Shown here: one piece after another, positions 3,316 to 26,521 of the stretch
Layout: each line of letters begins with the position of its first letter
Position numbering within the stretch: position 1 is the stretch's first letter
From: a virus
Taxonomy: Duplodnaviria > Caudoviricetes
Reading direction: 5' to 3' (one strand)
DNA: 64,000 nucleotides
Virus record (IMG/VR): IMGVR_UViG_2623620477_000001
Location: 1-64,000 of that record
Notes under the pieces: generated by a model
Databases searched by the model: none
What the model was told of the DNA's origin: nothing
The model's input: the letters and a program-made list of their open reading frames with translations, nothing else
Program-made: the position numbers and the translations under genes

Positions 3316-3606
3316 TTATTTCTTTTCTTTTTCTTCCAATTTGGTCTCAACTCTTACCAACGATTTCTGAATATCAGTAAGAGTGAGCATAATTGCATCG
3401 ATACTTTTATCGGTAGACTTTCTTTCTTCTTCGATTTTTGCCTGTAATGTTTTATGGTCGTTGCAAAACTTAGATGTCTTTTCTTCCACGTCTTTTTCCA
3501 ATTGTTCAAGTTTTGAAGTGAGTTTTGCCCCTTTCCAAACAAGGGCTAAAACTGGAAGTAAATAAATGACAGTACCAATTACATTGGTTAATACTTCACC
3601 GTTCAT
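3316..3606 (-). CDS. Single-TM coiled-coil lysis-cluster protein (holin/antiholin-like)
   Basis: N-terminal TM plus coiled coil; ATGA overlap with upstream holin. Confidence 0.6.
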   Translation of the reverse strand: MNGEVLTNVIGTVIYLLPVLALVWKGAKLTSKLEQLEKDVEEKTSKFCNDHKTLQAKIEEERKSTDKSIDAIMLTLTDIQKSLVRVETKLEEKEKK

Positions 3607-3881
3607 TTTTCGCCCCCGTCACTTTCACTACTCTCATTCTTGGTAAATAACTTTTGGAAGGTCTTAAATACAGTATCGTAGAAAATCGTTGCTCCCGATA
3701 CTCCGATAATTCCATAAAGAATCTTCTCTGGCAAATAAAAAGCGATAAGCACCATACAGACACCAACCAAAATGGTTACAAGTGTCCAAACACGCTTACC
3801 GCCTTTCTGTATAAGATTCTTAATGATTTCTGTTACACCTACTGTCGCAAGTGCGATTAAAAGTAACTCTGAATAATTGCT
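3603..3881 (-). CDS. Holin, 92 aa, AGC start (absent from ORF track)
   Basis: GAGGT-gggtaa-AGC then NYSELLLIALATVGVTEIIKNLIQKGGKRVWTLVTILVGVCMVLIAFYLPEKILYGIIGVSGATIFYDTVFK...; three hydrophobic segments, charged C-terminus; in-frame TAA immediately before AGC. Confidence 0.85.
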   Translation of the reverse strand, partial: SNYSELLLIALATVGVTEIIKNLIQKGGKRVWTLVTILVGVCMVLIAFYLPEKILYGIIGVSGATIFYDTVFKTFQKLFTKNESSESDGGEK

Positions 3882-10700: not shown

Positions 10701-13700
10701 GGGAAAGTTATTGACTGATTTAAACCTTGTAAAGTTTCTATTCTTTGAGTAGAAATGTTAAACAAAAGCCAAGTAACTTCTGTTGACAAATCAAAGCCTA
10801 TATACACTTTAGAAGAAGTTCCGTAAATTTTATGGAAATATAATTCTTCTGTATCGTGTAATTGGTATTCATCAACAACAGATTCATTTTTATAAACTTT
10901 GAGTTTTTTTGAAGAACCAATACTTACTCTATATACATCAGAAGAATTAGGAAGGCTAAAATAGTAAGCATGGCTAAGTGTTTCAGAACTAATTGTTTTT
11001 GACTGTCCAGACTTATATGTTCCTTCCTCAACCATAATCGAGTTACCTTCGCTCGATGTTTGGAAGATTATGTTTTCATCTTCATCGTATACTGTAAAAG
11101 CGTTTCCGTTTACTGTAACATCACCTGTCGCACTTACTCGGAAATCGTTAATTACGAAGTCGATGTCATATTCTCCTGTCGGAACTCCGTTTTCAATTTG
11201 TGGTGTAACTTGAATATACTGATGTTCACCACCAACACGGAAAGAACCTTTTCTTAAGAGCGTGTGTTCATCTATTACTGTATCATTTACAGCCCAATAG
11301 TTGTACTGGTCGCCTTGCATAGCACCGTCAGTAATATATCCAAGGTTTGCTGATAAGGCGGCGAGTTCTTCAACGAAAATCTGCTGAACTCCTAATGCAC
11401 CGTCTAAGCGGACTTTTTCTCCTTGATTATTAAGTTCCCAAGCCTTTACAACGTCTTGTGCAGAAGTTGCTCTTGCTTCAATGTAAGTAATAGAACTCCA
11501 AGAACTTTCAGCGAGAATTGTCTTTGCTTTAATGCGGTAAGCATAAAGAGTGTGAACACTTGCGTTTGGCTGTCCGTAAAGTGGTACGCTGAATGAAACG
11601 GTAGTTCCTGTTGCAACATTAAGTTTTTCACCTTCGTTTCCTTGCTTGTAGTTATCCAAACTTTCATAAGGATTCAAGCCAAGTGCAGGTGCATACCAAA
11701 CCAATTCTGACGGATCTGTGATAGGTGTATAAACATTGTTCACTAATTTATACGCTTTTGCAACTTGTATGAGAACTCCTTGACTTCCGTAGATATTATT
11801 CTGTTCTGTCCAACGAAGTGTAACACTTCTGCCCGAAGATGTGATATTCAATGTAGGAGTTGTCGGAGTGTAACCAAGATAGCCTGTAACATCTGGGTGT
11901 ACAACAGCACTGTCAGAATAGCCTGCTTCATTTTTCTCTCTTACTTTTATGCTAAGAGCCTGTACTGTTGCGGTAAGCATTGGCTGAATAGCATACTGAT
12001 ACGATTCGAGAGTTACATCTGATGCTACTAAAGTGTTATCTACATAAATATCGAAGAACTTAGTGCCGTAACTTTCTGTGTCTGCAACAAGAGGAATCTC
12101 AATATATTTTTCATAAGCCTTTGGAGCGATTACAGGAGTTGCAATCTCCCAAGTCTTATAATAAGTATCATCAAGAGTATAAGTATTCTGTGTCTGCGTA
12201 TACGCTTCGGATGTTGCGGTTACAGAGAATATCCAATCATCTTCGATGTCATCAATCTCTGGATAGCCGTCATTTTCTCTATCGAAGTAATAGTAATATG
12301 TAAGACTGCGAGTTCCTGTAATTTTCTGTGTTCCGTTTACACTTGCGCTGAATGAAGGTGTTCCGTAGAAATCTCCACTTAAAGACCACTTCAATTCGAT
12401 GTAATCTTCGAACGGAGTTGCTGTAAGTGTTGGAGCATTAAAGTGCCAAGTTTTATAATGAGTCTTATCATAAGTTGCATTTGCAGAAGTTGCAGACAAT
12501 CCCGACTGATTAGACACAGTAACAGTAAAGTTCCAAGCACTTGTATCAAAATCGCTCTTTTCTGGATATTCGTTATTCTCTCTGTTGAAATTATAACGAT
12601 ATGAGAATCCTCCAATGCCCTGTGCGATTACAACACCGTTTCTTTTTATTGTGTACAGATTTACACCGAATACACTACTTGTATCACAACTCCAAGTGAT
12701 ATTGATATAATCTCTATACGGAGTTGCTGTAACATTTATCGGTGCGGTCGGTTGCCAAGTAAGATAGTGAGTAAGGTCGAGAGTAACATTTACCCAATCA
12801 GAATAATGTCCGTACACATTCATTGTTCTGATTCTTATTGACCAATTCGAGAGTTGAGAGGTTGTAGGATAACCGTCTGTGCTTCGGTCAAAAATATAAT
12901 CATAGAATGTTTCAGAAGTTACAAAAGTCTGAACTACATTATTCGGTTTTGTTATTTCAACGAGGTAATTCTTTACACTATCATTAAGAGTAGCACCGCC
13001 ATTTTCCCATTTAACAGAGATTCCGCTTTCCTTTGCAACGGCAGTAGCATTTGACGGAGCAACTGGTGTAGCAGTTCCACCATTTTCGATTATTCCAATG
13101 GTTTCTCCAATGGCATTTGCAAGGTCTGATTGTGAAGCAGGAGTACTTACATCTCCGTAATTTATAGGAAGTCCGCTCTGATTTGGGAGAGTGGTTTTCG
13201 GATCAAAGTCGTCTACAACAATACTATCTGCATCATAAATCTGTTCATTATAAGGAATGAGCGTTAATTCATAAGTTCCGTCACCATTTTCTTTCTTTCC
13301 GAAACAGAGAGTTTCAATTGTTTCTGTTCCATAGAGTCCGAATGATAATACTGCTCCTTCTTCTATAATGCTATTTGCAGTTTCAGCACTATCGAACATA
13401 AGTACATTGTGCTCTCCCGATGCAGAGAATCTAGCAAGTTTTTTCTTTATGATTACAGGTTCTCCGTTTGTGTTTACACCGTTTATTTGAACACCATAAT
13501 TTTCGTTTACATGAGCAACTGTGAACTTTACATCGGTTTTAATACCTGTAATGAGGTTGTTATCGTTCTTGATAAGTTCTACAACTTCTCCACCCTCTCC
13601 GATACCAACGCTGATTATAGGGCTTTGAATTGTTATAAGACTACCAATTTCAGCAAGTGAACCTTCGGTAGTTACCTTTGCTTGAAGGGTTTCTGGTCTT

Positions 13701-15733
13701 AATTTCTTACAAGCCTGCTGATATAAACTTAATGCCTTTGCGTGATATGGGTCTGAAATATATGGCATTTCTACATTCTCAAGAACATCAGAACTTGACA
13801 AGGCAGGACTTCCGTAAGGTTTTACTGCAATTGTATCTTGCTGATAATAATTCAACGCAGAAATGTACTTTACACTCTGACCGTCTGGAAGTACATCAAA
13901 ACTCTTTGTCAGTGTAAGCGATAACAAGTTGTTATTATTCAAAGTAAGCAGAGGTATAGACTGTGGCTTATCGGTATAAATACCGTACTTCTTTCCGTTG
14001 AGGATAATAAAACTCTTTGCGGTCTGTAAAATAGTGTTTACAAGGTCGATTGTTTTTGTACTATTTAATACAGCACCGTCACAATAATGACGTTTATCGG
14101 AAATGCCTCCTGCAAATGTCCTTGTTTCTTCACAGAGTTCATACAGTTCTCCAAACTGCTGTAAGTCGATTTTGTTTGACTCCATATAATCAATACCTTC
14201 TGTGAGATTGTATCTGTATATAGGGTCTTTATAATCTCCTGTCATTACCATTAAAGAAAGTGATGCTGGGTTTCGTGTCGGCGCTAGAGTTTTGCTCCAC
14301 CCTGTTCCATCGAATGTTCTTGCCTTTGAAGTAGCGACGAGATTTATTTTATCAAAATTACTCTGTAAATCATCAGTTACCTTAATAGAGAATCCAAGTC
14401 TTGCAGTCTTGTTTCTTTCTCTTTCATTCATAGGTGCTTGTCTTTCATAACTTGTTGATTGACCTTCCCAATCTGTTTTTGAATAATCATAGCACCAACT
14501 TCGAATTGCAGTAAAATAACACTTGTCTATTATCTGTGCAGAATCTGTAGTTGAAGGATTACAACGAGAGATTCTGAACTCGATTACCTTCGATTCACAA
14601 GTCTTTATATCACTCTTTGGGAACGCAATACGGTAAACATATCTTAAGGTTTTTGCCTTTTGGTTTTTGAATACCATATATCCGTGTTCTTGGTCGTAGA
14701 TACCTCTGTTTGTAGATTCTGACATCTTCCACTTCTGACCCACGTTATCACCTACAATCCAAGTGTTCCCGTTATCAAGAGAATACTCGATTTTTACATC
14801 AACTTCTGCATCCTGTTTTTCACCCTTATCGTTATATCCGATAAGACCTGCAAAAGACACTTCGAGTTCTACTATATTTGCATATCGGGCAGAGAACGCA
14901 TAAACATAATTTGCATTTCCTTCTACATTCTTAAGTTCTGCATTAAAGTTCTCTTGTACAACTTTCTGATTATACAAAGATACTTCGTTCGCTCCCTGCT
15001 GTATTTCAAGTTGAGTGTAACTTGATTTTTCTGGGTCTACTTCGCCTGTAACTGGATCAATGTATTCATAAGGATATTTTTCTGATGTAATTTCAAGAGC
15101 ACCGTTCTCAACATTTCCTATATTACTTGCAAGAACTTCGTTTCCTATACTTACATCTTTTATATCGAGGTTGTTATATCCGATTAAATACAGACAGTGA
15201 TATATCATATTTTCACCGTCTTCTCCACTTATTGTTGTGTAAGGCTTTCCAATTACATAAGGAACAAAATAAGTCTTTCCTAAAATAAGAGGTATACACT
15301 TTCCTAAAGCACTCTGATTCTTCGAGCCTTGTATTGAAGGAAGATTTTCTATTTCTTCTTGATTGTTAGCAGTATCTACATCTGGAGTAAGCCATTTTTT
15401 CAATCCTTCTTTAAGTAATTCAGCGAACCCCTTGCCTGTTACCATTCTAACAACAAGTTCACTAACACCAAGAACAGCAACTCCAATAAGTGTAGCATAA
15501 ATAAGCGAAGCAACAGAAATAGTTCCGACTGCACTTGGGTACTGTCTTATAACACAAGTATCACCGTCTTTAAGTTTATAGTCTTTTTCCTTGCGGATTC
15601 CGTTTACAAAGATTACAGAGTTTTCAAGATCAACGTCTGTAATTGCTTCACAAAGACAGAGAGGTGTGCTGATTTTTACGACTTCTGATTTAGGCTCAAA
15701 TGGATTCTTAATTACTTCAACAATTGCTTGGCT
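7781..15733 (-). CDS. Tail tip / host-specificity protein (lambda I+J-like) fused to fibre; AGC start, 2650 aa
   Basis: IPLILGK, TRNPASL, YCDGAV tail-tip motifs; FN3-like repeats; collagen GxY; fibre C-terminus; frame stays open 96 codons upstream of track ATG 15445 (VIFVNG..DYKLKDGDTCVIRQYP) to GAGGGG-tactaca-AGC. Confidence 0.88.
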   Translation of the reverse strand, partial: SQAIVEVIKNPFEPKSEVVKISTPLCLCEAITDVDLENSVIFVNGIRKEKDYKLKDGDTCVIRQYPSAVGTISVASLIYATLIGVAVLGVSELVVRMVTGKGFAELLKEGLKKWLTPDVDTANNQEEIENLPSIQGSKNQSALGKCIPLILGKTYFVPYVIGKPYTTISGEDGENMIYHCLYLIGYNNLDIKDVSIGNEVLASNIGNVENGALEITSEKYPYEYIDPVTGEVDPEKSSYTQLEIQQGANEVSLYNQKVVQENFNAELKNVEGNANYVYAFSARYANIVELEVSFAGLIGYNDKGEKQDAEVDVKIEYSLDNGNTWIVGDNVGQKWKMSESTNRGIYDQEHGYMVFKNQKAKTLRYVYRIAFPKSDIKTCESKVIEFRISRCNPSTTDSAQIIDKCYFTAIRSWCYDYSKTDWEGQSTSYERQAPMNERERNKTARLGFSIKVTDDLQSNFDKINLVATSKARTFDGTGWSKTLAPTRNPASLSLMVMTGDYKDPIYRYNLTEGIDYMESNKIDLQQFGELYELCEETRTFAGGISDKRHYCDGAVLNSTKTIDLVNTILQTAKSFIILNGKKYGIYTDKPQSIPLLTLNNNNLLSLTLTKSFDVLPDGQSVKYISALNYYQQDTIAVKPYGSPALSSSDVLENVEMPYISDPYHAKALSLYQQACKKLRPETLQAKVTTEGSLAEIGSLITIQSPIISVGIGEGGEVVELIKNDNNLITGIKTDVKFTVAHVNENYGVQINGVNTNGEPVIIKKKLARFSASGEHNVLMFDSAETANSIIEEGAVLSFGLYGTETIETLCFGKKENGDGTYELTLIPYNEQIYDADSIVVDDFDPKTTLPNQSGLPINYGDVSTPASQSDLANAIGETIGIIENGGTATPVAPSNATAVAKESGISVKWENGGATLNDSVKNYLVEITKPNNVVQTFVTSETFYDYIFDRSTDGYPTTSQLSNWSIRIRTMNVYGHYSDWVNVTLDLTHYLTWQPTAPINVTATPYRDYINITWSCDTSSVFGVNLYTIKRNGVVIAQGIGGFSYRYNFNRENNEYPEKSDFDTSAWNFTVTVSNQSGLSATSANATYDKTHYKTWHFNAPTLTATPFEDYIELKWSLSGDFYGTPSFSASVNGTQKITGTRSLTYYYYFDRENDGYPEIDDIEDDWIFSVTATSEAYTQTQNTYTLDDTYYKTWEIATPVIAPKAYEKYIEIPLVADTESYGTKFFDIYVDNTLVASDVTLESYQYAIQPMLTATVQALSIKVREKNEAGYSDSAVVHPDVTGYLGYTPTTPTLNITSSGRSVTLRWTEQNNIYGSQGVLIQVAKAYKLVNNVYTPITDPSELVWYAPALGLNPYESLDNYKQGNEGEKLNVATGTTVSFSVPLYGQPNASVHTLYAYRIKAKTILAESSWSSITYIEARATSAQDVVKAWELNNQGEKVRLDGALGVQQIFVEELAALSANLGYITDGAMQGDQYNYWAVNDTVIDEHTLLRKGSFRVGGEHQYIQVTPQIENGVPTGEYDIDFVINDFRVSATGDVTVNGNAFTVYDEDENIIFQTSSEGNSIMVEEGTYKSGQSKTISSETLSHAYYFSLPNSSDVYRVSIGSSKKLKVYKNESVVDEYQLHDTEELYFHKIYGTSSKVYIGFDLSTEVTWLLFNISTQRIETLQGLNQSITFPLPFELDNYVLARNNQDKLCVVNILNPSSVFVTDIDLENDFSNLTVNSVGAYDGYFYILVSGSSSLTMQYIIRISTSGTTTWSGYYAVFNGREAFFSESEMTHPCTIIGDSGKLYIYGDCKLLEEENEVYSDTYAVVVGVITLSDVTWNSWQYWNDEHYSASIIHLDVYKTPFDSAINIDINSFISDKTFAVPFHSNSIDCVAWLKFQINAIYLNQELIDVNNIIVASIDFENTTPEIHTWYTVIGNVVFEGSRNITIPKPSNPMVSVYQYISMIYLNAYVNHNSQVVYYDYYTLYSVEFLKAYLYPYETVTGRNTYGTGIGFTKILYDSEFRTYRYVLESGATLEFDEYGNLITSSSQGAKGDKGDKGDKGDAGATPQITAVAGAHINEVGTPTVTQSGTAEAPVFTFDYLKGQSGAGSETAEKLETARNLKVALGSTSAQSFDGSANAESIGVSGTLPVANGGTGQTTAKDACNAFINALDTGSSTPTDNDYYVSQYVNGGTTITTYHRRPMSALWNYIKSKIQSIALTIGSTASAIAETLYGSFTVKNSSGTTTASISQAGAITGSSATISGDILGSNVPYFGTVYSSNTYSSGYYEIARLEGAAASGNHSISMEGTVISDKIGTVTISDFYVFVRGSNATVSTAIFNCVGRYSNADLTATYEVFDTNKFRIRLYGKITGNYHRYNTVIKYASTGDVSDRASNRTVTFPNTYVTAVVGTSITKNVNYAGNITGSSGSCSGNSSSADFTRGTAYCTTASTEQAKVASMRGFVLASGATFPITFTNANSYNGVITLNVNSTGAKNIYINNLVSSSSNKTLPAGTYLCRYNGSYYYIDTEYFVTNARNAATSTWTKGETMRPTTANLYPKSTNGSLTHFLATSTMTTEKPATDGHIIHMSWDNNGGWGAQMFLPDSATGVPQYRAEAGGTWTAWKNFITADNIGSQTVATATTANKIRTSAPSSPANGDIWIE
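9581..9626 (-). repeat. Collagen-like GxY repeat in tail protein
   Basis: GAKGDKGDKGDKGDA encoded by 9-nt tandem units. Confidence 0.8.
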
Positions 15734-16573: not shown

Positions 16574-16923
16574 ACTTCCTCCCAATCCATAGTACAAGTT
16601 ATAAGTTTTCCACTTGTTTGAGAATACTGCGGTGCTCCGTCAGAAGTGAATCTGTATTCAGCATTTCCACTTCCGTCAATCTTAGGAAACTCAAAAGACA
16701 GAGTTCCGAACTTAATTGTATTCTTATACCAATAACTAAAATACAGATATTCGTCATAGGTAAAAATCATCGTTACGCTAAAAGGTCTTTTGGCAAGGCT
16801 GTGAGCCATTCGTCTTTTTGTTTTACCACTTAATGTTTCATCAGAGATAAAACCTGTTATTTCAGACCAAGTTGTATCTCTTCTTGCCAACTGATTTACA
16901 TGAGAATCCCAAGCCTGTGCCAT
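16570..16923 (-). CDS. Distal tail protein (lambda M-like)
   Basis: Directly after tape measure; SGKTKRR, FSYWY...GTLSFEFP. Confidence 0.7.
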   Translation of the reverse strand: MAQAWDSHVNQLARRDTTWSEITGFISDETLSGKTKRRMAHSLAKRPFSVTMIFTYDEYLYFSYWYKNTIKFGTLSFEFPKIDGSGNAEYRFTSDGAPQYSQTSGKLITCTMDWEEV

Positions 16924-19900
16924 TATAACCTCCTACCGTCTACTCTCTGTTTCTGCATTGCAAAAGCGTTATCCCAACCATTAAAACCATTTGCAACATC
17001 ACTCGCAATCTTCTTGCTGATTGTAATGAGCATTTCATTTACGCCATTATTATTTCTCTGCTGAACATCAACATCGGTATTTGCATAGTTGTTTACCACA
17101 ACTTTTACTGCACCTTTGCCGAGTCCTTCAGGATTCTTTGTTGCAATAATAGTATCTTCGGGATGAGTACTGAAATTACCTTTTGGTGTAATTATCATAT
17201 CATTTACAGGTGTTGCTCTTGATACATAATCTTTAAGAGTAAATGCGTTAATTTCAGATTTCTTCTTAAGATAATACTCTTCCTGTTCCTTAATTGCCTT
17301 TGCAAGGTCTTTATACTGCTGATTAAGTTCTTTGAGAAGTTCAAGTTGTTTCTCTTGTTCATTTGCCTCTGATGACCCCTCTGCAAGAGAACTTATAAAT
17401 CCCGATGCAATACCACTTGCTCCACCAAGAGCAAATAAAGCGAGAGCGCCTGGCACTCCTGCCCAACCAGACTGTGCAATTAAGTTGACACCTGCTTGAA
17501 TACAGGTAATTGCGAGGCTCTTTGTTATCTGTGAAACGAGTTGTGCAAACTGTTTCTTTAATGCGTCTCCTACGCTTGCTCCTTTTGCGAGAGCATCGCC
17601 GATTGCTGTAAATCCGTCTATCAAGGCATTTGGAATCTGTGTCTTTGCAATGTCCATAAGAGTACTTGCAAATAAATCAGCATTAGTTTTTGATATACCG
17701 ATTTTCTCAAAGTATTCAGAAACCTGTCCTTCAAGATAACCCCAAATATCAGACTGTTTTTTCTTCTCATCAGTTAATTGCTTTTCCCAATAAAGAAGTG
17801 CTTCGGCTTGGTTTTCTGTGTACCCTTCCGACATAAGAGCCTTTATTTCAGCCTGTTTCTTTAACTCACCTGTCTGGTCTTTGAGGATTGCAAGTTCTTC
17901 TCTATATGATTCCAATTGAGCAATAGTAGCCTCTTGTTGTGCGCTATACTGCAAATCTTTCATCTTGTTTGTAGTACCCTCATCAGCACCCCACAATCCC
18001 GAATCACGCATAGCTTTGATTACAGAGTTTATCTTCTCAAGTTTCTGTTCTGCGAGATCCAATTTGCTTATATTGATAAGTCCTGCGTCAGAGAATGACT
18101 TCATATTTGTCATTTCCTTTTCAAGTTTTTCCTTGAATTTAGCAACAGCAGTAGCACCTTTTTCAATAGCACCATCATATACTTCTTCGTTAGTGAATCC
18201 CATCGCATTTTGCAATACTTTCTGCCATTCAGAGAGATTTTCAAGCTTAATTTTAATCTTTACTTCTTTAAGTTGCTTATTGAGATATTCAATCGTCTTG
18301 TCAATTTCTGGCTTATTCTTTGCATAACTGATTACATTTCCATCATTATCAAATTGTCCATTGAGTTCTTTTAATTTCTTCTCATAAGCCTGTACAGTTT
18401 TAACGTTATCTTCAAGAGCAATTTTCTCTTTTTCGTGTTTAGAGATAGTTCCATTAAACAATTCATCAACTTGGTCTTTAAGTTCGGTGATATTGAACTT
18501 CTCAACTTGAGATTCCCAAAATGAAACAACACGAGCCTGTTCTTCTATCGACCTATTTGTATGTGCAACGGCTTCTTGCCATTTATTTACTTCTTCTTGT
18601 GCTTTCTTTAATTTCTTTTCATATCCTGTAAGTCCGCCACCACCATCTTTTCTCATTTTTTCTTCAAGCAAACTTACATTCTTGTGTGCCTCTTGTAGTT
18701 TTTCATTAAAAGTAGCAAGATTGCTCTTATACCCATCAAGAATAGCAGTTTCATTTTGAAGATTCTGTTTGCGATTATTCTTATTAACTCCAACATTCAG
18801 TAAGTTATAATCTGTTCCCATTGCCTTTTTTGCATCTTCTACAGCCTTCGCCATTTTTGCGGTTTCTTCTGCAGCCTCCGCAGTACTCTTTTTATAAGAC
18901 TTTACAGCAACGGCTATTCCTGCAATTACACCTGCTCCAACAGCCAACGCTAAAGTTGCAGGGTTGAGAATTGCCTTAAGAACTACAGTTTTCTTTAACT
19001 CGGTATTTAATTTGATTATTGCACCAACAAGTCCAACTCCGATTACGGTTACAAGGGAAGAAATAACCGCAACAAGTCCACCTTGTAGAAGTGCTTTCAT
19101 TACAGGATTGCTATTCCACTCAAGTAATTTATCAGAGAGGTTTCCTATCTTTTCTTTGAGGACATCGAGGATAGCCTTGTAAGCATCTGCAATTCCCGAT
19201 ACTTCGGCAAAGTTTACAGTCATTTCCTTAAAGTAGTCAGAAATGAACCCTTCCTTACCTTCGATAGTTTTATTGATGTTGTCCATAGCATTATAGAACT
19301 GACCTGCTTTTCCTGTGGTTTCATCTACGGCAGAAGTCATATTCTTAAATGCCTTGGTAATATCCTTTGCGGTGGCAGTTCCCGTAACGCCCATTTTCTT
19401 CAACATATCATAGATAGGAACGCCACGCATAGCCAACTGTTGCAACTGCATAGCAGATGCCTTTCCTGTACTGTTGATTTTAGAATAGATAGTTACGAGA
19501 TCCGCGAACTTGTTTTTGTCTCCCTGTACAACGTTTCCGAGCATTACCAACTTATCTTTAATGGTGTCTACATCTACACCGACGTTAGCCATCTGTGTAA
19601 ACGCACCTGTAAGTTCATCAACACCGAAAGTTGTTTCATTAGAGAGTTTTCGAAGTTCCTCGAACTTTGCTTTACCTACATCTGCATCGTGGAAGAATGT
19701 AGTAAGACCCATTTCAAGTTCTTCGAAGTGTGAGAAGTTACCAATAGCGGTCTTAAACGCACTAGTCATTCCTTTAATAGTTGCAACAAGTGAAGTAACA
19801 CCTGCAACTGCCGCGAGAGTAGACGGGCTAAGCGCCCTCATCGCATCATCAAGATTACCCGTAACCTTTTCAGAGTTACTTGCAGTCTTGTTGAACATAT

Positions 19901-19973
19901 CTAAATCGCCTGTAGCCTTTACTACTCCCTTAGAATCTATCTCAAGAACTAATCTACTGATGTCATTTGCGCT
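16923..19973 (-). CDS. Tape measure protein; AGC start, 1016 aa
   Basis: Tape-measure domain (ETTFGVDEL, LQQLAMRGVPIY), helical/TM segments; N-terminus ANDISRLVLEIDSKGV follows GAGGAGG-aagccaa-AGC. Confidence 0.9.
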   Translation of the reverse strand, partial: SANDISRLVLEIDSKGVVKATGDLDMFNKTASNSEKVTGNLDDAMRALSPSTLAAVAGVTSLVATIKGMTSAFKTAIGNFSHFEELEMGLTTFFHDADVGKAKFEELRKLSNETTFGVDELTGAFTQMANVGVDVDTIKDKLVMLGNVVQGDKNKFADLVTIYSKINSTGKASAMQLQQLAMRGVPIYDMLKKMGVTGTATAKDITKAFKNMTSAVDETTGKAGQFYNAMDNINKTIEGKEGFISDYFKEMTVNFAEVSGIADAYKAILDVLKEKIGNLSDKLLEWNSNPVMKALLQGGLVAVISSLVTVIGVGLVGAIIKLNTELKKTVVLKAILNPATLALAVGAGVIAGIAVAVKSYKKSTAEAAEETAKMAKAVEDAKKAMGTDYNLLNVGVNKNNRKQNLQNETAILDGYKSNLATFNEKLQEAHKNVSLLEEKMRKDGGGGLTGYEKKLKKAQEEVNKWQEAVAHTNRSIEEQARVVSFWESQVEKFNITELKDQVDELFNGTISKHEKEKIALEDNVKTVQAYEKKLKELNGQFDNDGNVISYAKNKPEIDKTIEYLNKQLKEVKIKIKLENLSEWQKVLQNAMGFTNEEVYDGAIEKGATAVAKFKEKLEKEMTNMKSFSDAGLINISKLDLAEQKLEKINSVIKAMRDSGLWGADEGTTNKMKDLQYSAQQEATIAQLESYREELAILKDQTGELKKQAEIKALMSEGYTENQAEALLYWEKQLTDEKKKQSDIWGYLEGQVSEYFEKIGISKTNADLFASTLMDIAKTQIPNALIDGFTAIGDALAKGASVGDALKKQFAQLVSQITKSLAITCIQAGVNLIAQSGWAGVPGALALFALGGASGIASGFISSLAEGSSEANEQEKQLELLKELNQQYKDLAKAIKEQEEYYLKKKSEINAFTLKDYVSRATPVNDMIITPKGNFSTHPEDTIIATKNPEGLGKGAVKVVVNNYANTDVDVQQRNNNGVNEMLITISKKIASDVANGFNGWDNAFAMQKQRVDGRRL

Positions 19974-20398
19974 TTGGCTTCCTCCTCAACACGAATGTCT
20001 TCTTCGGCTTCATCTTCCATTTGCTTGATTTTTGCGTCCGCCCAATTGTTACACTTCAAGATGAAGTCTATTTCTATCTGCCTAAACTTTATATTCCTAA
20101 TTATAGCATACGAGTTAATATCTGTCCAAGTCATTACTTCGTGACAATGGTTGTATATCTCAAGAAACGAATTATATATGAACAAAAAATAAACAGGAAC
20201 ATTTGGCTCTCTCAAGTAATCGAAGTCACTAGATTCGTCAAAACATTCCTGTCCTATATCTCGTATTAAGTCGTTTCTATCTTCCGCATTGGTTCTAAAA
20301 ACAGTTCTATTACTCGCTGTTCGATGTGCTGTCGGATAATGTAGGAAGAAAAACTGCTCAATTGCCTCTTTTAGTTCTCCTTCCCTTCCGATAAAAAA
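19949..20398 (-). CDS. Tail assembly chaperone GT extension (-1 frameshift product)
   Basis: -1 frame from T TTT TTA (20398-20392) is open through to the stop at 19949. Confidence 0.8.
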   Translation of the reverse strand, partial: FFIGREGELKEAIEQFFFLHYPTAHRTASNRTVFRTNAEDRNDLIRDIGQECFDESSDFDYLREPNVPVYFLFIYNSFLEIYNHCHEVMTWTDINSYAIIRNIKFRQIEIDFILKCNNWADAKIKQMEDEAEEDIRVEEEAKAQMTSVD

Positions 20399-20808
20399 TT
20401 AGAACGTTCGTTAGAAGTCTTGATTACCCATTCTTTAAGAGCAGGAATCTTTTCAAGAAGATATGTATACGATTTTTTATCACAACCAATTGTTTTTCCA
20501 TTGAGAACAATTGGTTCATCAGTTACGTCTTTCTTATCCCAATCGTATGTCCAAACTCCGCCAATACGAATAAGAGCACCTTCAATGCTGGTCAAAAGTT
20601 CAGTTACATCGTCATCATCAAGTCCGTCTTTATCTTTTTTGCCAAATCCGAACTTTCTAAGTTTTGCGTTTTCATACTCCTGTACTACATCCGAATCTCC
20701 GCCGTAAACTTTTACTGCAATAGGAAGTTTTCTTCCTTCGAGTTTTACGGGAATTACTACACCTTCATCAGCATTGTCTTTTGTTGCAAATGCGCTTAAA
20801 TCTGCCAT
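20371..20808 (-). CDS. Tail assembly chaperone G
   Basis: MADLSAFATKDNADEG...; between major tail and tape measure; slippery site near 3' end. Confidence 0.8.
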   Translation of the reverse strand: MADLSAFATKDNADEGVVIPVKLEGRKLPIAVKVYGGDSDVVQEYENAKLRKFGFGKKDKDGLDDDDVTELLTSIEGALIRIGGVWTYDWDKKDVTDEPIVLNGKTIGCDKKSYTYLLEKIPALKEWVIKTSNERSNFLSEGKEN

Positions 20809-21109: not shown

Positions 21110-21207
21110 TTTAATCTCCTCCTAAAATGAGATTCTGTCTGTCCAATGCCAACCGTCTTTCCGATTTGCCATTATGAGTTTTATATGACCAGAACCTTGT
21201 GGTTCTA

Positions 21208-21273
21208 TGGAAGTTCTCGGACTTAGCACCGAGCATCGAGGATAGAGAGCCTCGACTACACTATGCACTTCCA
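21208..21273 (-). ncRNA. Degenerate tRNA-like element
   Basis: GGAAGT/ACTTCC-A acceptor-like stem, TCGAGG-CTCTCTAT-CCTCGA arm, CTCGG-TGCTAAGT-CCGAG arm; D-arm truncated; both loops 8 nt. Confidence 0.5.
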
Positions 21274-21299
21274 CCTACAGAACTTGAAAACTGTAGAAA

Positions 21300-21372
21300 T
21301 AGCGGAGGAGGGATTCGAACCCCCGACATTGTGGCAAGCGCCCACCTAAGCTACCAACTGCTTCACTCCGCG
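21300..21372 (-). tRNA. Initiator-type tRNA with GCU anticodon (would read AGC)
   Basis: CGCGGAG TG AAGC AGTTGGTA GCTT A GGTGG GCGCTTG CCACA ATGTC GGGGG TTCGAAT CCCTC CTCCGCT A: full cloverleaf, C1xU72 mismatch, A11-U24, A73, short variable loop, no encoded CCA. Confidence 0.88.
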
Positions 21373-21491
21373 ATGTAGGAGAGTTTTTATATAGACTGCA
21401 CTCACAAAAGCCATTCGGTTTAATCAGCCGATAGATTCGACATATCAAACTTGCTACGACCCATTCGGATTTTCACAAATCAAGTCTTAGA

Positions 21492-21515
21492 AACGGCTCA
21501 TTAAGGCGAGCCGTT
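21492..21515 (-). terminator. Hairpin after major tail gene
   Basis: AACGGCTC-8nt-GAGCCGTT; short U tail, probably leaky or a processing/stability stem. Confidence 0.5.
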
Positions 21516-21521
21516 CAACCT

Positions 21522-22778
21522 TTATTCAATAGTTACTGTACAACTCTGGTTTGCACTTGCTGTTGTACTTCCTGTAGCAGAAGCATTTGTATTTGTAGCA
21601 ACAACCTTGTAAACACCGCTTTCTGTTGCTGTGTAAGTAGCATCGTCTGCTTCGCTGATTGCAACATTATCCTTGTACCACTGATAACTGATTGTTCCAC
21701 CGTCTGTTACTGTTGCAGTACCGTCAAGTGTTACTGATGTTTCATCAGTAGTATCTTCCAACTCATTTGTGAAAGTTGGTGTTTCAGCATCTACTGGTGT
21801 TTCAGCAGTCACAACGTCTTTCTCAAGTTTCAAGTCAGTAGCACTGTTTACCTTGAATGGAACAGAGAACTGCAATTTGTTTCCGTTCTTGCTTTCTGTT
21901 GGAGCACCAAGGTGAACGTTCAAAGTAAGTGTGTAAGAGTAAGTTATTTCTCCAACTGTTCTTTCTACCTTTACCTGTAATACCTTGTCCTTTCCGTCTA
22001 CTGCATCGTTGTAAATCTCATGTCCGAGTTCATCAACGTTATAAACATCGAATGTTCCTTCAATTACGAAGTCTCCAAGAGAGTTCTCAATTGATTCTTC
22101 TTCAAACAGAGCAGGTGTTCTTTCGAGGTTGTTGTTGATTGTGATATTCATACTTGGTGACTGACGAACAGCCACAAGTGATGATGTAGTATCACCGTAT
22201 TTCAACCAACCTTTCTTTGTAAGGAATGATTTTCCTGTATTTGCACTTCCATAAGTAACAGTTCTGTTATCATAAGAAGTAGGCTCGGAAAATACTTTCT
22301 TAGGGTTATTAGAACCCATAAGATTCCAAGTCAGTTTTACAAAGGCATCAGTCGCAAAGTCCATTGTGAGTTGGTTTACATACATTTTTGTGTACATCTG
22401 CCAAGCAAGCGGTGTCTGTGGATATTTCTTAACCATTAAGAAAGCCTTTACAGCATCACCAAGAGTAAGTGAACTTTTTCCGTTGTTTGGTGTTGTCCAA
22501 TCGTTACAGAAAGCACCCGCGAACAAATCATCCTGTTCACCGTCTACATTCCATTCTGTTCCAATATCACCAGCATTTGATTCTGTGCCGACTTCTGGGG
22601 TTGAAGGAATACGTGAATCAGGCAGAATAATATCTGATGCGATTTCTTCCGATGTTCCTGCAACCGAATTGTCTGATACACGTCTTGGAGTAAGTGCAAT
22701 TGCACCACTTCCCGAAGTAATCAAACCAAGATAGGTTGTAAAATAAGTCTTAATTTTGTTTGTAATAGCGTTACTGCT
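21522..22778 (-). CDS. Major tail (tube) protein with C-terminal Ig-like domain; AGC start, 418 aa
   Basis: Tail-tube pattern (AGDIGTEW, INNNLE, IEGTF); GGTISYQWYKD Ig-like domain; AAGGAG-tagcaa-AGC with in-frame TAG two codons upstream. Confidence 0.88.
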   Translation of the reverse strand, partial: SSNAITNKIKTYFTTYLGLITSGSGAIALTPRRVSDNSVAGTSEEIASDIILPDSRIPSTPEVGTESNAGDIGTEWNVDGEQDDLFAGAFCNDWTTPNNGKSSLTLGDAVKAFLMVKKYPQTPLAWQMYTKMYVNQLTMDFATDAFVKLTWNLMGSNNPKKVFSEPTSYDNRTVTYGSANTGKSFLTKKGWLKYGDTTSSLVAVRQSPSMNITINNNLERTPALFEEESIENSLGDFVIEGTFDVYNVDELGHEIYNDAVDGKDKVLQVKVERTVGEITYSYTLTLNVHLGAPTESKNGNKLQFSVPFKVNSATDLKLEKDVVTAETPVDAETPTFTNELEDTTDETSVTLDGTATVTDGGTISYQWYKDNVAISEADDATYTATESGVYKVVATNTNASATGSTTASANQSCTVTIE

Positions 22779-22781
22779 TTG

Positions 22782-25381: not shown

Positions 25382-26521
25382 CTAGCCGAGAAGTGCGATA
25401 GAGTTCTCTGGCTTAATATTCTTGAATCCCCAAGCAGTACCGATTGTAACGGTTGTCTGATATGGAGCACCCCAAACAGCAAGTTCGTATGGAATACCTG
25501 TAAGTGGGTCTGTGATAATTGCACGGTCAAGTGCATTATCTCCCTTACTTGGTACGAATGGAACACGGCTTGCCATAATGATAGAACCACGAGAGAATAC
25601 GCTGTTTGGAGCGTAATTCTGTACAGTGATTGCAGCATCATTAGCAACGTCTGCTTTAAGAGCAGTCTGCAGTTTAAGAGTTGTTCCACCTGTAGCAACA
25701 TCTTCTGCAACAGCATAGAGAGTTGTGTCAGAACCGAACTTAACAAGGTCACCCTTCTTGAATGTACCTTCACCTGTGTCCATTGTAACCTGTGTTGCAC
25801 CTTCTGATGCTCCACCGTTTACAAGGTAGCCACTTGCAGTACCCTTTGCGTGACGCATACCTGCTGATTCGCGGATTGTGAATCCGAACAAATCACCAAG
25901 AATACCACGGCGGAGAAGGTCTCCTGTACCTGCTTCATTAACCTTCTGCAAGTGTTCAATATTGCGGAGGTTACGACCAGATGTTGTATTAAGGATAGCC
26001 TGTAATTCTCCAAGAGGAGCACCAACATCTTCGAGGTTCTTAAGAGCATCTGTAAGAATGCTTGTGTTTGATGCAAATGGATTTGTACCAATTGTACCAA
26101 GTACACTTCCCTCGTTTACAGCAGAGATAACTGCCTCTTCACAAGCGTCTGCTTCCATTTCATTACGAAGTCCGCGGATTCTCTGTGCATACTGTTCAAC
26201 CTGAATTGGGTCAAGCATACCAGAACCACTAACGCCAGCCTCGCCTTCTCCTGTCCAAACGATAGGCTTACCACGACGGATCTTCTGGATTGTTACACCT
26301 ACTGTCTCGATTGTATCGAGGTCTGCTGTAGGAGTTACACCTTCTCTGATATCCTCGTTATCTCCCATAGGAGTAATTGGGATTTCAACCATCTGTCCTT
26401 TCTTAACAGAACTTGCCTTTGCACTGATGATAGTTGCAGGAATCATACCGATTGGCTCTGCATTTACCTTATTCAATGCTTCATAAAATACTGGAATTAC
26501 CGAGTCTAATTCGTGTGCGCT
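25382..26521 (-). CDS. Major capsid protein (P22 coat-like); AGC start, 379 aa
   Basis: Follows scaffold; LRRGILGDLFGFTIRES, ITDPLTGIPY; N-terminus AHELDSVIPVFYEALNKVNAE follows AAGGAG-acgcta-AGC. Confidence 0.88.
   Translation of the reverse strand, partial: SAHELDSVIPVFYEALNKVNAEPIGMIPATIISAKASSVKKGQMVEIPITPMGDNEDIREGVTPTADLDTIETVGVTIQKIRRGKPIVWTGEGEAGVSGSGMLDPIQVEQYAQRIRGLRNEMEADACEEAVISAVNEGSVLGTIGTNPFASNTSILTDALKNLEDVGAPLGELQAILNTTSGRNLRNIEHLQKVNEAGTGDLLRRGILGDLFGFTIRESAGMRHAKGTASGYLVNGGASEGATQVTMDTGEGTFKKGDLVKFGSDTTLYAVAEDVATGGTTLKLQTALKADVANDAAITVQNYAPNSVFSRGSIIMASRVPFVPSKGDNALDRAIITDPLTGIPYELAVWGAPYQTTVTIGTAWGFKNIKPENSIALLG

What the first reader, a model, noticed from the sequence alone, without database searches (positions are those of the whole stretch)
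21300..21372. Initiator-bodied tRNA with GCU anticodon and a non-canonical loop; charging enzyme unknown
Seen: C1xU72 mismatch, G2-C71, C3-G70, A73 and A11-U24, which are established formylation/initiator determinants, and a 5' end CGCGGAGTGAAGCAGTTGGTAGCT close to bacterial tRNA-fMet. The loop is GCGCUUG: C33 instead of U33, U37 instead of a purine, only two of the three anticodon-stem G-C pairs, and a 27x43 mismatch. It has no long variable arm, so it is not a normal tRNA-Ser, and no CAU, so MetRS recognition is doubtful. A scanner would probably label it Ser or pseudo. Which amino acid it carries, and whether it is formylated, is open.
Basis: partly seen in the sequence, partly recalled or inferred. 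Interest (0 to 1): 0.9.

Follow-up and report, generated by a model that had tools for sequence, protein, structure and literature searches.

The report
Phage initiator tRNA reads AGC starts
This prophage carries its own initiator-type tRNA whose anticodon matches an unorthodox start codon (AGC here, AGG in relatives) that replaces ATG at the head of its capsid, portal, tail and holin genes, which looks like a natural private start codon for virus-particle genes.

Summary
Window 21300-21372 (-) is a 73-nt tRNA with a C1xU72 mismatch, G2:C71, C3:G70, A73, A11:U24 and the loop GCGCUUG (anticodon GCU, C33, U37). It is not a decayed gene. It belongs to a family of 16 phage tRNAs, always placed between the major-tail and tail-chaperone genes. 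All 16 have an unpaired 1:72 and A73, and C35-U36 is invariant: 14 have anticodon CCU and 2 have GCU.

The new result is what the tRNA reads. In this prophage the major capsid, portal, major tail, tape-measure and holin-like genes have no ATG/GTG/TTG at their conserved N-termini. Each has a Shine-Dalgarno sequence, 5-7 nt, then A-AGC. Relatives with a CCU tRNA have A-AGG at the same aligned positions. Relatives without the tRNA have ATG there. A second GCU lineage (L031), apparently independent, also uses AGC.

The SD-defined start census gives AGC 6 / AGG 0 here, and AGG 11 and AGG 5 in two CCU phages. U37 can pair with the A at -1, which is present at 16 of 16 AGG starts.

Best reading: a phage-encoded orthogonal initiator tRNA for late genes. 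The amino acid it carries, formylation and expression are untested. I found no published natural precedent.

The parts
21300..21372 (-). Initiator-type tRNA gene, 73 nt. Anticodon GCU at 21337-21339; anticodon loop GCGCUUG at 21335-21341. C1xU72, A73, no encoded CCA.
   Evidence: Sequence. Rfam RF00005 38.2 bits. Family model R1 45 bits. Coordinates verified.
21522..22778 (-). Major tail protein gene with a C-terminal Ig-like domain, directly upstream of the tRNA. The start is AGC at 22776-22778, preceded by SD AAGGAG at 22785-22790 and a 6-nt spacer. An in-frame TAG lies two codons upstream. The first canonical start (TTG at 22724) lies 18 codons inside the conserved N-terminus.
   Evidence: PHROG 290 match. 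The N-terminus X-S-N-A-I-T-N-K-I-K-T is conserved with L003, L036 and L031, and ATG sits at X in L036 and L031. Coordinates.
25382..26521 (-). Major capsid protein gene. The start is AGC at 26519-26521, preceded by SD AAAGGAG at 26528-26534 and a 6-nt spacer.
   Evidence: Context. phrog_283 aligns protein residue 1 (the residue after X) to profile position 2. Close homologs P0003, P0005, P0007 and P0008 begin M-A-(H/N)-E-L-D at X, whereas the public gene call for this locus (P0001) is cut to 354 aa.
16923..19973 (-). Tape measure protein gene. The start is AGC at 19971-19973, preceded by SD AGGAGG at 19981-19986 and a 7-nt spacer. An in-frame TGA lies four codons upstream.
   Evidence: The N-terminus X-A-(N)-D-I-S-R-L-V-L-E-I-D-S is conserved in the 9 loci, and L047, which lacks the tRNA, has ATG at the aligned position.
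32305..33723 (-). Portal protein gene. The start is AGC at 33721-33723, preceded by SD AGGAGG at 33730-33735 and a 6-nt spacer.
   Evidence: phrog_145, E = 6e-124. The G003 portal starts with AGG and shares X-S-I... from residue 2.
3603..3881 (-). Holin-like 92-residue membrane protein gene. The start is AGC at 3879-3881, with an in-frame TAA immediately before it and SD GAGGTG 5 nt upstream. The next canonical start lies more than 40 codons inside the gene.
   Evidence: Weak match to phrog_1299 (holin), E = 9e-4.
7781..15733 (-). Tail fibre J-like giant protein gene of about 2650 codons. A possible AGC start at 15731-15733 has only a weak SD (GAGG, 9 nt upstream). The first ATG is about 96 codons downstream.
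   Evidence: This one is less certain than the other five.
20371..20808 (-). Tail assembly chaperone gene downstream of the tRNA. It has an ATG start and a canonical -1 slip site T_TTT_TTA within AATTTTTTATCG at 20389-20400. It marks the conserved 3' neighbour of the tRNA.

Best explanation
The gene encodes a phage-borne initiator tRNA whose anticodon has been changed from CAU to GCU. It is probably cut out of the late transcript, given a CCA end and charged by host enzymes. It then binds the 30S P site at AGC codons that lie 5-7 nt downstream of a Shine-Dalgarno sequence.

In this prophage those AGC codons are the start codons of the portal, major capsid, major tail, tape-measure and holin-like genes, and perhaps the giant tail-fibre gene. 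U37 extends the pairing to four bases with the A that always precedes the start codon (A-AGC with GCUU). The unpaired 1:72 keeps the tRNA out of elongation, so internal AGC codons stay serine.

Most relatives run the same system with anticodon CCU and A-AGG starts.

Shown here by sequence comparison: the tRNA family and its conserved initiator-type features; the non-canonical starts; and the covariation of start codon with anticodon.

Inferred: expression and processing, P-site use, exclusion from EF-Tu, and the purpose of the system. The most likely purpose is a translational lock or timer that makes virion and lysis proteins depend on the phage's own tRNA.

Unknown: which amino acid the tRNA carries and whether it is formylated.
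For: 1. The family is real and under selection. There are 16 distinct members: 15 in alignment A5 plus L065. In A5, 93.7% of cells are paired, 13 of 21 pairs show compensatory double changes, and 0 of 500 shuffles reach the observed values.

2. Initiator features are conserved.
- 1:72 is unpaired in 15 of 15 (C.U 10, U.U 3, U.C 1, A.C 1), and in L065 (C.U).
- G2:C71, C3:G70 and G30:C40 are invariant in 15 of 15; A73 is present in every row.
- G31:C39 is kept in 13 of 15.
- The best host match to the family model is the initiator tRNA-Met(CAU): 53.1 bits in G002 and 43.1 bits in G001. The G002 host initiator itself has C1xU72.

3. The position is conserved. Every member lies on the coding strand between the major-tail and chaperone genes. 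In the metagenome scan seeded with the chaperone, 10 of 11 loci carry it. In the 11th the contig ends 533 nt upstream of the chaperone.

4. Start codons covary with the anticodon at alignment-defined start positions.
- Tape measure (TMP): AGC in the window and L031 (both GCU). AGG in L003, L019, L028, L030, L036, L037 and L043 (all CCU) and in L027 (tRNA site off the contig). ATG in L047 (no tRNA). Several loci have an in-frame stop directly before the AGG.
- Major tail protein (MTP): AGC in the window; AGG in L003, L006, L037 and L043; AGG preceded by an in-frame TGA in L004 and L005.
- Major capsid protein (MCP): AGC in the window; AGG in L005, L006, L038, L064 and L065.
- Portal: AGC in the window, AGG in G003.

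5. Unbiased census of codons at SD-defined start positions, in ORFs without a canonical start.
- G000 (GCU): AGC 6, AGG 0.
- G002 prophage (CCU): AGG 11, AGC 1. That one AGC sits two codons before an A-AGG.
- G003 (CCU): AGG 5, AGC 0.
- Unrelated viral contigs, 107 kb: AGG 0, AGC 0.

6. X is the true start position. Homologs put ATG exactly there.
- MCP: P0003, P0005, P0007 and P0008. Among 62 IMG/VR relatives with an N-terminal hit, X is ATG in 49, GTG in 5 and AGG in 3.
- MTP: L036 and L031.
- TMP: L047.

7. The GCU type probably arose twice. On the chaperone tree the window sits in a 97/96-supported clade with CCU phages, and L031 lies outside a 92/98 clade.

8. The base at -1 is A at 16 of 16 AGG starts and 5 of 6 AGC starts, against 27 of 50 ATG starts. 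It is complementary to U37. Pairing between position 37 of tRNAfMet and mRNA position -1 has been shown experimentally, including for an A37U variant (PMC10018350, passages).

9. The mechanism is feasible. In E. coli an engineered initiator tRNA with CCU, paired with an AGG start, was the best of 12 orthogonal pairs in all strains tested (preprint 10.64898/2026.04.16.719103, passages).

10. There is no sign of sense-codon reassignment. Internal AGG codons align with K, K, R, D and E. Internal AGC codons align mostly with S and A.
Against: - Nothing here shows that the RNA is made, processed, charged or used.
- This copy is the most deviant member of the family. It has C33, G32/G38, G27xA43 and the lowest model score (45 bits), and ARAGORN rejects it at default settings. 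It could therefore be a poor tRNA.
- Not all bacterial initiator hallmarks are present. Pair 29:41 is not G:C here or in most relatives, and 11:24 is U:A in 12 of 15.
- Covariation is not universal. My prediction that the L031 major tail gene would start with AGC failed: it starts with ATG, as does L036's.
- Some starts are ambiguous. L019/L032 MTP has an ATG abutting the SD two codons before the AGG. P0002 begins M-L-S-A-H, which implies an ATG two codons upstream in a close relative. Window candidates 39002 and 71714 have in-frame GTGs nearby. L045 has ATA at the TMP position and no tRNA was found there.
- Charging is unexplained. G34 and C35 conflict with the known MetRS reading of CAU. A20, an ArgRS element, is absent. 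None of the 20 larger G000 ORFs scanned against Pfam matched an aminoacyl-tRNA synthetase or formyltransferase family.
- No sigma-70-type promoter or intrinsic terminator was found around the gene, so its transcription is inferred.
Confidence: 0.85

Rival explanations
1. It is a decaying tRNA pseudogene, a relic of a phage tRNA-fMet or tRNA-Arg with no function. The odd loop is mutational debris.
For: This copy has C33, U37, G27xA43 and a 1:72 mismatch. ARAGORN rejects it at default settings. Its model score is the lowest in the family.
Against: The family shows strong structural covariation (13 of 21 pairs with double changes). C35-U36 is invariant in 16 of 16 members. The genomic position is conserved across phages whose tail proteins are only 38% identical. 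The anticodon matches the start codons of at least five essential genes in the same genome. Loss of the tRNA would leave those genes without a decodable start.
Confidence: 0.03
2. It is an ordinary elongator tRNA that supplements rare codons: Ser AGC/AGU here, Arg AGG in relatives, as ARAGORN labels them. On this view the AGG/AGC 'starts' are read weakly by the host tRNAfMet or are mis-inferred.
For: ARAGORN calls the relatives tRNA-Arg(cct) and L031 tRNA-Ser(gct). Phages often carry tRNAs for rare AGR codons (general knowledge). AGG is rare in these genomes, at 4.3-6.1 per 1000 codons.
Against: The 1:72 mismatch is kept in 16 of 16 members, which is not an elongator trait. There is no long variable arm or G73 for serine, and no A20 for arginine (identity elements as cited in PMC8629427). 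AGC differs from AUG at two positions, so tRNAfMet should not read it, yet it sits at SD-defined starts of six ORFs here and none in the CCU phages. The start codon switches together with the anticodon in two lineages.
Confidence: 0.04
3. It is a tRNA-shaped RNA that does not decode at all. It could be an RNase P/Z processing signal separating the abundant tail-tube message from downstream genes. It could be a decoy or inhibitor for host anticodon nucleases, or an anti-Shine-Dalgarno mimic. The CUCCUUU loop of relatives equals the 3' end of Firmicute 16S rRNA as I recall it.
For: It lies in an intergenic region of a polycistronic late operon with no promoter of its own detected. A defence nuclease that senses a phage tail assembly chaperone and then cuts tRNA anticodon arms is known (PMC13056530, passages), and this gene adjoins the chaperone gene. 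The loop CUCCUUU is complementary to AAAGGAG.
Against: A processing signal would not need an invariant C35-U36. The anti-SD idea fails for the GCU loops of the window and L031. None of these roles explains why the loop triplet matches the start codons genome-wide and changes with them. Processing could still be a secondary effect.
Confidence: 0.06
4. The host uses a deviant genetic code in which AGG (or AGC) is a methionine-type sense codon, as in the AGG-to-Met gut Bacilli. On this view the phage tRNA is simply an elongator or initiator for that code.
For: A Met-identity tRNA(CCU) with A73, G2:C71, C3:G70 and no A20 exists in AGG-to-Met Bacilli, and two phages there appear to have adapted to that code (PMC8629427, passages).
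Against: Internal AGG codons in the CCU phages are rare, 5 in about 2240 codons of four genes, and align with K, K, R, D and E rather than hydrophobic residues. Internal AGC codons in the window align mostly with S and A. The deviant codons are concentrated at SD-defined starts. The sample is small.
Confidence: 0.02

Closest known systems
Bacterial initiator tRNA-fMet (anticodon CAU)
   Same: Unpaired 1:72, G2:C71, C3:G70, A73, and G:C pairs at 30:40 and 31:39. In this copy also A11:U24 and a near-identical 5' half. It is the best host match to the family model. The G002 host initiator also has C1xU72.
   Different: The anticodon is GCU (CCU in relatives) instead of CAU. Position 37 is U instead of A. 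This copy has C33. Pair 29:41 is not G:C. It is encoded by a phage inside its tail operon.
Engineered orthogonal initiator tRNAs in E. coli (i-tRNA with a mutated anticodon plus a matching non-canonical start codon)
   Same: The principle is the same: keep the initiator body, change the anticodon, and put the complementary codon behind an SD. The i-tRNA(CCU)/AGG pair was the strongest of 12 pairs in every strain tested (preprint 10.64898/2026.04.16.719103, passages read). That is the pair most members of this natural family use.
   Different: Those are laboratory constructs. Here the system is natural, is spread over many late genes of a virus, includes a U37/A(-1) fourth base pair, and has switched at least once to AGC/GCU.
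Stop-codon recoding in gut phages by phage-encoded suppressor tRNAs
   Same: A phage-encoded tRNA changes the meaning of a codon that is concentrated in late (structural and lysis) genes, so late translation depends on the phage tRNA. This is the proposed regulatory logic, discussed in PMC10879173 (passages read). The Borges et al. 2022 proposal is recalled and was not seen here.
   Different: That system reassigns stop codons during elongation. This one reassigns the start codon. No in-frame stops are involved, and the standard code holds inside the genes.
Met-identity tRNA(CCU) of AGG-to-Met gut Bacilli (Shulgina and Eddy 2021, PMC8629427)
   Same: CCU anticodon combined with A73, G2:C71 and C3:G70, and no A20 (passages read).
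   Different: That tRNA is a cellular elongator for a genome-wide sense-codon change and, according to the paper, derives from tRNA-Arg. Here the body is initiator-type with a 1:72 mismatch, and the codon is used at starts only.
Phage tRNAs with anticodon-loop mutations that evade host anticodon nucleases (van den Berg et al. 2023, PMC10264068)
   Same: A phage tRNA with non-canonical anticodon-loop nucleotides. An initiator with an altered loop could also escape nucleases aimed at tRNAfMet.
   Different: Those tRNAs keep their anticodon and their codon meaning. I saw only the search listing and the start of the abstract. No nuclease link was tested here.

Membership tests
tRNA (Rfam RF00005) | Cloverleaf that scores above the curated gathering threshold | tested here: met
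   38.2 bits against a gathering score of 29, full length 1-71.
Bacterial initiator tRNA | No Watson-Crick pair at 1:72 | tested here: met
   C1xU72 here. The pair is unpaired in 15 of 15 aligned members and in L065.
Bacterial initiator tRNA | G2:C71, C3:G70 and A73 (formylation and Met acceptor determinants, as listed in PMC8629427 and recalled from the E. coli literature) | tested here: met
   G2:C71 and C3:G70 are invariant in 15 of 15. A73 is present in all rows.
Bacterial initiator tRNA | Three consecutive G:C pairs at 29:41, 30:40 and 31:39 | tested here: not met
   Here 29:41 is U:A, so only two G:C pairs are present. Across the family, 30:40 is G:C in 15 of 15, 31:39 in 13 of 15, and 29:41 is G:C in only 2 of 15. 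Natural initiators with two G:C pairs that still function are recalled from the literature and were not checked here.
Bacterial initiator tRNA | A11:U24 instead of Y11:R24 | tested here: met
   Met in this copy, but only 3 of 15 family members have A:U and 12 have U:A.
Bacterial initiator tRNA | Anticodon CAU, read by MetRS | tested here: not met
   The anticodon is GCU. The family has CCU in 14 of 16 and GCU in 2 of 16. The gene therefore works like an initiator but is not tRNA-fMet.
Bacterial initiator tRNA | Aminoacylation, formylation by Fmt, IF2-dependent P-site binding | not testable with these tools
   These need biochemistry. No RNA data were available.
tRNA-Ser(GCU) | Long variable arm and G73 (bacterial SerRS identity, recalled) | tested here: not met
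   The variable loop has 5 nt and the discriminator is A.
tRNA-Arg(CCU) (label given to relatives by ARAGORN) | A20 in the D loop, with C35 and A/G73 (as cited in PMC8629427) | tested here: not met
   C35 and A73 are present. The base before A21 is U or C in all 15 rows, never A. The 1:72 pair is unpaired.
Non-canonical start codon decoded by a matching initiator (orthogonal initiation) | Codon complementary to the anticodon at SD-defined, homology-defined start positions, changing together with the anticodon | tested here: met

The most novel reading that the evidence does not exclude
These phages run a private start code. Virion and lysis proteins can be initiated only by the phage's own initiator tRNA, so late translation is locked until that tRNA accumulates. 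Late translation is also insulated from anything that disables host tRNAfMet-dependent initiation.

The tRNA may not be charged by MetRS at all. C35, U36 and A73 are invariant while position 34 is free (C or G). That pattern fits ArgRS-type anticodon reading better than MetRS. If so, the capsid, portal and tail proteins would be primed with a non-methionine residue such as (formyl-)arginine.

The system can also be retargeted in evolution by switching the anticodon and many start codons in concert (AGG to AGC, probably twice).
Probability: 0.3. Interest if true: 0.97.

Novelty: categorically new. Interest (0 to 1): 0.93.

Why it matters
If confirmed, this would be the first natural case I know of in which the start codon, rather than a stop or sense codon, is reassigned through a dedicated initiator tRNA. 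It would also be a natural counterpart of the orthogonal initiation systems that synthetic biologists build. Five literature searches found none.

It would give phages a new layer of late-gene control, analogous to stop-codon recoding.

It has an immediate practical consequence for annotation. Gene callers truncate the main structural genes of this phage group. The window's own capsid protein is in the public collection as 354 aa instead of 379. In the capsid family, 101 of the 120 listed clusters begin 4 or more residues inside the conserved N-terminus. The tRNA itself is labelled tRNA-Arg or tRNA-Ser, or is missed altogether.

It makes several questions directly testable:
- which synthetase charges an initiator with a CCU or GCU anticodon;
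- whether C33 and U37 are tolerated in the P site;
- how a genome can switch a start codon in many genes at once.

It also offers ready-made, evolution-tested parts for orthogonal translation.

Tried and rejected
- **Frameshift-tRNA idea.** I asked whether a four-base anticodon SCUU might act on the chaperone G/GT shift. All 12 chaperone genes examined use a canonical -1 slip site, T_TTT_TTA (T_TTT_TTG in L006), unrelated to AAGG or AAGC. Dropped.
- **Anti-Shine-Dalgarno mimic.** The loop CUCCUUU is complementary to AAAGGAG, but this fails for the GCU loops, and the downstream SDs are ordinary. Kept only inside a low-probability rival.
- **Prediction that L031's major tail gene starts with AGC.** It starts with ATG. 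Its tape-measure gene does start with AGC.
- **Exact-match search for the 5' half of the tRNA in IMG/VR.** No hits.
- **blastn of the locus against GenBank phages.** No match.
- **Single-protein search with the chaperone in IMG/VR.** Nothing found. The alignment-based searches worked.
- **The 71-aa membrane protein as a marker.** Its homologs L021-L024 lie in another gene context without the tRNA.
- **Expression.** No RNA holder was listed for window 21150-22850. This says nothing either way.
- **Read laying of four metagenome runs at 80% likeness.** It showed relatives of about 85% identity covering the tail gene and tRNA region. One joint skips 21207-21298. The tables were cut, and no row covered the anticodon or the start codons, so nothing could be concluded.
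- **Promoter and terminator scan of 20850-21700.** No sites.
- **MFE fold of the whole 412-nt intergenic region.** Not significant, z = -1.6.
- **Theta (HDV-like) ribozyme idea for the downstream motif.** The paper gives no sequence consensus in its text, and theta ribozymes lie within 5 nt of the tRNA end, whereas this motif lies 25 nt or more away. Not assigned.
- **Search for a phage-encoded synthetase or formyltransferase.** None of the 20 larger G000 ORFs scanned against Pfam matched such a family. Smaller ORFs were not scanned.
- **Supplementary files of papers.** Not opened. Those of the 2026 i-tRNA preprint and of PMC10018350 might bear on amino-acid identity and on position-37 effects.
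Full report
**What is there.** Window 21300-21372 on the minus strand is a 73-nt cloverleaf.
- The acceptor stem is CGCGGAG/CUCCGCU with C1xU72, and the discriminator is A73.
- The D arm is AAGC-AGUUGGUA-GCUU, which gives A11:U24.
- The anticodon stem is GGUGG/CCACA, with G27xA43 and U29:A41.
- The loop is GCGCUUG, the variable loop has 5 nt, and the T arm is normal.
- No CCA is encoded.

It is the only Rfam hit in the window (tRNA, 38.2 bits, gathering score 29). ARAGORN finds nothing at default settings and calls tRNA-Ser(gct) only with lowered thresholds.

**Setting.** The window is the first 64 kb of a 74-kb IMG/VR record classed as a provirus. The tRNA lies in a siphovirus tail module on the same strand. 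The gene order is tail completion, tail terminator, major tail protein with an Ig-like end, the tRNA, a 71-aa membrane protein, the tail assembly chaperone and the tape measure.

**A family, not a relic.** Searches seeded with the neighbouring proteins recovered relatives from IMG/VR, metagenomes and two genome bins. I built a covariance model from three of them.
- The model finds a homologous tRNA in 10 of the 11 metagenome loci that encode the chaperone. The eleventh contig ends 533 nt upstream of the chaperone, and there is no hit there even with filters off.
- In all there are 16 distinct members: 15 in alignment A5 plus L065.
- Every member sits between the major tail gene and the chaperone gene.
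- In A5, 93.7% of cells pair, 13 of 21 pairs carry compensatory double changes, and no shuffle of 500 reaches these values.
- Against that background the 1:72 position is unpaired in 15 of 15 (C.U 10, U.U 3, U.C 1, A.C 1).
- G2:C71, C3:G70 and G30:C40 never vary in the 15, A73 is present in every row, and G31:C39 holds in 13 of 15.
- The loop is CUCCUUU in 12 of 16 members. It is CUCCUUA in L043, UUCCUGU in L036, GUGCUUU in L031 and GCGCUUG in the window.
- So C35 and U36 are invariant, U37 is present in 15 of 16, and the anticodon is CCU in 14 members and GCU in 2.

In the two host bins available, the host tRNA closest to the family model is the initiator tRNA-Met(CAU). In the Treponema-labelled bin that host initiator itself has C1xU72 and A73. 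ARAGORN labels the relatives tRNA-Arg(cct) or tRNA-Ser(gct).

**What it reads.** The major tail gene just upstream has no ATG, GTG or TTG at its conserved N-terminus.
- The protein sequence X-S-N-A-I-T-N-K-I-K-T-Y-F-T-T is shared with relatives well upstream of the first canonical start.
- At X the window has AGC, 6 nt after AAGGAG. L003, L006, L037 and L043 have AGG. In L004 and L005 the AGG is directly preceded by an in-frame TGA. L036 and L031 have ATG, which shows that X is the start position.
- The major capsid gene follows the same rule. The window has AAAGGAG, 6 nt, then AGC. L005, L006, L038, L064 and L065 have AGG at the aligned position.
- Close capsid homologs begin M-A-H-E-L-D at exactly X. 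The PHROG profile aligns its position 2 to the residue after X.
- The tape measure starts with AGC in the window and in L031, the two phages with a GCU tRNA. It starts with AGG in L003, L019, L028, L030, L036, L037 and L043 (all CCU) and in L027. Several of these have an in-frame stop directly before the AGG.
- L047, a relative in which no such tRNA was found within 4.5 kb, has ATG at the same position.
- The portal starts with AGC here and with AGG in G003, with homology from residue 2.
- A holin-like gene starts with AGC directly after an in-frame TAA.

**Unbiased census.** I took all ORFs of at least 100 codons and asked which codon sits 5-8 nt behind a strong Shine-Dalgarno within the first 12 codons when no canonical start does.

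| Record | tRNA anticodon | AGC | AGG |
|---|---|---|---|
| G000 (this prophage) | GCU | 6 | 0 |
| G002 prophage | CCU | 1 | 11 |
| G003 | CCU | 0 | 5 |
| Unrelated viral contigs, 107 kb | none | 0 | 0 |

- The single AGC in G002 lies two codons before an A-AGG, so it is a neighbour effect.
- Many of those contigs use few strong SDs, so the control is only moderate. The one AGC hit in L047 is antisense to the gene cluster.
- The genes concerned are late genes. In G000 they are portal, capsid, tail tube, tape measure and holin-like. In G002 they are head morphogenesis, capsid, tail tube, tape measure, tail fibre, a virion protein, an esterase and unknowns. In G003 they are portal, scaffold, a capsid of a different family (phrog_247), tail tube and a minor tail protein.
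- Early genes and several late genes (large terminase, connectors, chaperone) use ATG.
- Two further AGC candidates in the window, at 39002 and 71714, have in-frame GTGs nearby and are ambiguous.

**A fourth base pair.** The base before the start codon is A at 16 of 16 AGG starts and 5 of 6 AGC starts. The exception is the ambiguous 39002. At ATG starts it is A in 27 of 50. A(-1) is complementary to U37, giving A-AGG with CCUU and A-AGC with GCUU. Pairing of initiator position 37 with mRNA position -1 has been demonstrated in E. coli, including with an A37U tRNAfMet (PMC10018350, passages read). This explains the otherwise strange pyrimidine at position 37.

**History.**
- Among 62 IMG/VR capsid relatives with a readable N-terminus, X is ATG in 49, GTG in 5 and AGG in 3. 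These come from the best 80 of 570 relatives found. The three AGG cases are the closest relatives. The other 5 are off by a codon or unclear.
- Of the 78 loci searched with the model, only L065 holds a family tRNA. The four other hits are ordinary elongator tRNAs.
- ATG is therefore probably ancestral, and AGG plus the tRNA mark a subgroup.
- In the larger protein collection, 101 of the 120 listed capsid clusters begin 4 or more residues inside the conserved N-terminus, at scattered positions. That is the signature of gene callers falling back on the first ATG, GTG or TTG. It suggests the subgroup is large, but I could not see the DNA behind those clusters.
- On a chaperone tree the window lies in a 97/96-supported clade with CCU phages, and L031 lies outside a 92/98 clade. 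The change from CCU/AGG to GCU/AGC therefore probably happened twice. One gene of a mosaic virus is limited evidence for this.

**Mechanism and its status.**
- Shown by comparison: the initiator-type body under selection, the non-canonical starts, and their covariation with the anticodon.
- Inferred from established knowledge: RNase P/Z excision from the late transcript, since no promoter or terminator was found; CCA addition; exclusion from EF-Tu by the 1:72 mismatch; P-site binding; and possibly formylation.
- Feasibility: an engineered E. coli initiator with a CCU anticodon and an AGG start was the best of 12 orthogonal pairs in all strains tested.
- Internal AGG and AGC codons behave as Arg and Ser, although the sample is small.
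- The amino acid is open. MetRS reads C34-A35-U36, and C35 is said to be the least critical of the three (PMC8629427). G34 in the window and L031 argues against MetRS.
- Invariant C35, U36 and A73 with a free position 34 fit ArgRS-type reading, but A20 is absent.
- None of the 20 larger G000 ORFs scanned against Pfam matched a synthetase or formyltransferase family.
- The purpose is also inferred. The most plausible one is a lock or timer that makes virion and lysis proteins depend on the phage tRNA, in parallel with the logic proposed for stop-codon recoding in gut phages (Borges et al. recalled). Insulation from attacks on host tRNAfMet is another possibility.

**Weak points.**
- There are no expression or charging data.
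- This copy is the most deviant member of the family (C33, G27xA43).
- Pair 29:41 is not G:C.
- L031 and L036 start their tail-tube genes with ATG, contrary to my prediction for L031.
- L019/L032 and P0002 have an ATG abutting the SD two codons upstream of the odd start codon.
- L045 has ATA at the tape-measure start position and no tRNA was found there.

**Novelty.** Five full-text searches found engineered orthogonal initiators, stop-codon recoding and sense-codon reassignment. None found a natural initiator tRNA with a reassigned anticodon serving non-AUG-family start codons. Subscription-only literature was not covered.

**Verdict.** This is most likely a phage-encoded orthogonal initiator tRNA for AGC start codons of late genes (confidence about 0.85). 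It is of high interest.

Noticed in passing
window 21195-21275 (-); also L025:822-902 and 914-994, L027:28-108, L028:290-370, L029:990-1070, L035:1130-1210: A conserved structured RNA motif lies 25 nt or more downstream of the tRNA in 6 phages, and twice in tandem in L025. It is a three-way junction with invariant GCAYAGUGYAG and CGGUGCUAAGUCCG. Of 22 predicted pairs, 15 show compensatory changes among 7 copies. There is no Rfam match. It is optional: it is absent from L003, L026, L030 and L033, and a metagenome relative skips 21207-21298. Its function is unknown; it could be a processing element or ribozyme for the tRNA.
   Followed up: partly
G000 67254-67317 (-), outside the window (L001:1501-1564): A second tRNA-like gene (Rfam tRNA 46.4 bits) has normal acceptor, D and T arms, but only about 14 nt where the anticodon arm and variable loop should be. 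It lies between PcfK-like and SSB genes in the early region.
   Followed up: partly
window 21373-21521 (-) and the equivalent regions of L003, L025, L031 and L035: A conserved stretch sits between the hairpin after the tail-gene stop and the tRNA. It reads roughly CCGAAUG-CUUUUGU-GUA-AGAC-AAAAA. It could be a promoter of a non-sigma-70 type or a processing site. It was not analysed.
   Followed up: no
window 20389-20400 (-): The tail chaperone has a canonical -1 slip site T_TTT_TTA inside a conserved N-F-L motif. The -1 frame is open from there in all 12 loci examined.
   Followed up: yes
window 20894-21109 (-); L021-L024: The 71-aa membrane protein between the tRNA and the chaperone has homologs of 71-87% identity in a different, lysis-like gene context in other phages. 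It looks like a mobile cassette. In L006 it lies upstream of the tRNA instead of downstream.
   Followed up: partly
window 25382-26521 (-) and public protein P0001: The public gene call for this capsid gene is 354 aa, starting at an internal ATG 25 residues into the conserved N-terminus. Many homolog clusters are truncated in the same way at scattered positions. This is a systematic annotation error for this phage group.
   Followed up: partly
L032/L019 tail-gene start; protein P0002: In two relatives an ATG directly abuts the Shine-Dalgarno sequence, two codons upstream of the AGG (or the AGC-equivalent) start. It may be a second, weak start or a transitional state. This is unexplained.
   Followed up: no
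L045 about 4900-4930: This is a relative with no family tRNA within 4.5 kb. It has ATA at the aligned tape-measure start, with the frame open upstream. The start of that gene is unresolved.
   Followed up: no
G002:C54:172-244 (L057): The host initiator tRNA-Met of the Treponema-labelled bin has C1xU72 rather than the textbook C1xA72, the same mismatch as most of the phage tRNAs.
   Followed up: no
window 38439-39002 (-): A SAM-dependent methyltransferase gene has a weak PHROG label 'tRNA methyltransferase' (E = 3.5e-5). Its possible starts are AGC after AGGAG plus 5 nt, or GTG two codons later. Any link to modification of the phage tRNA is untested.
   Followed up: partly
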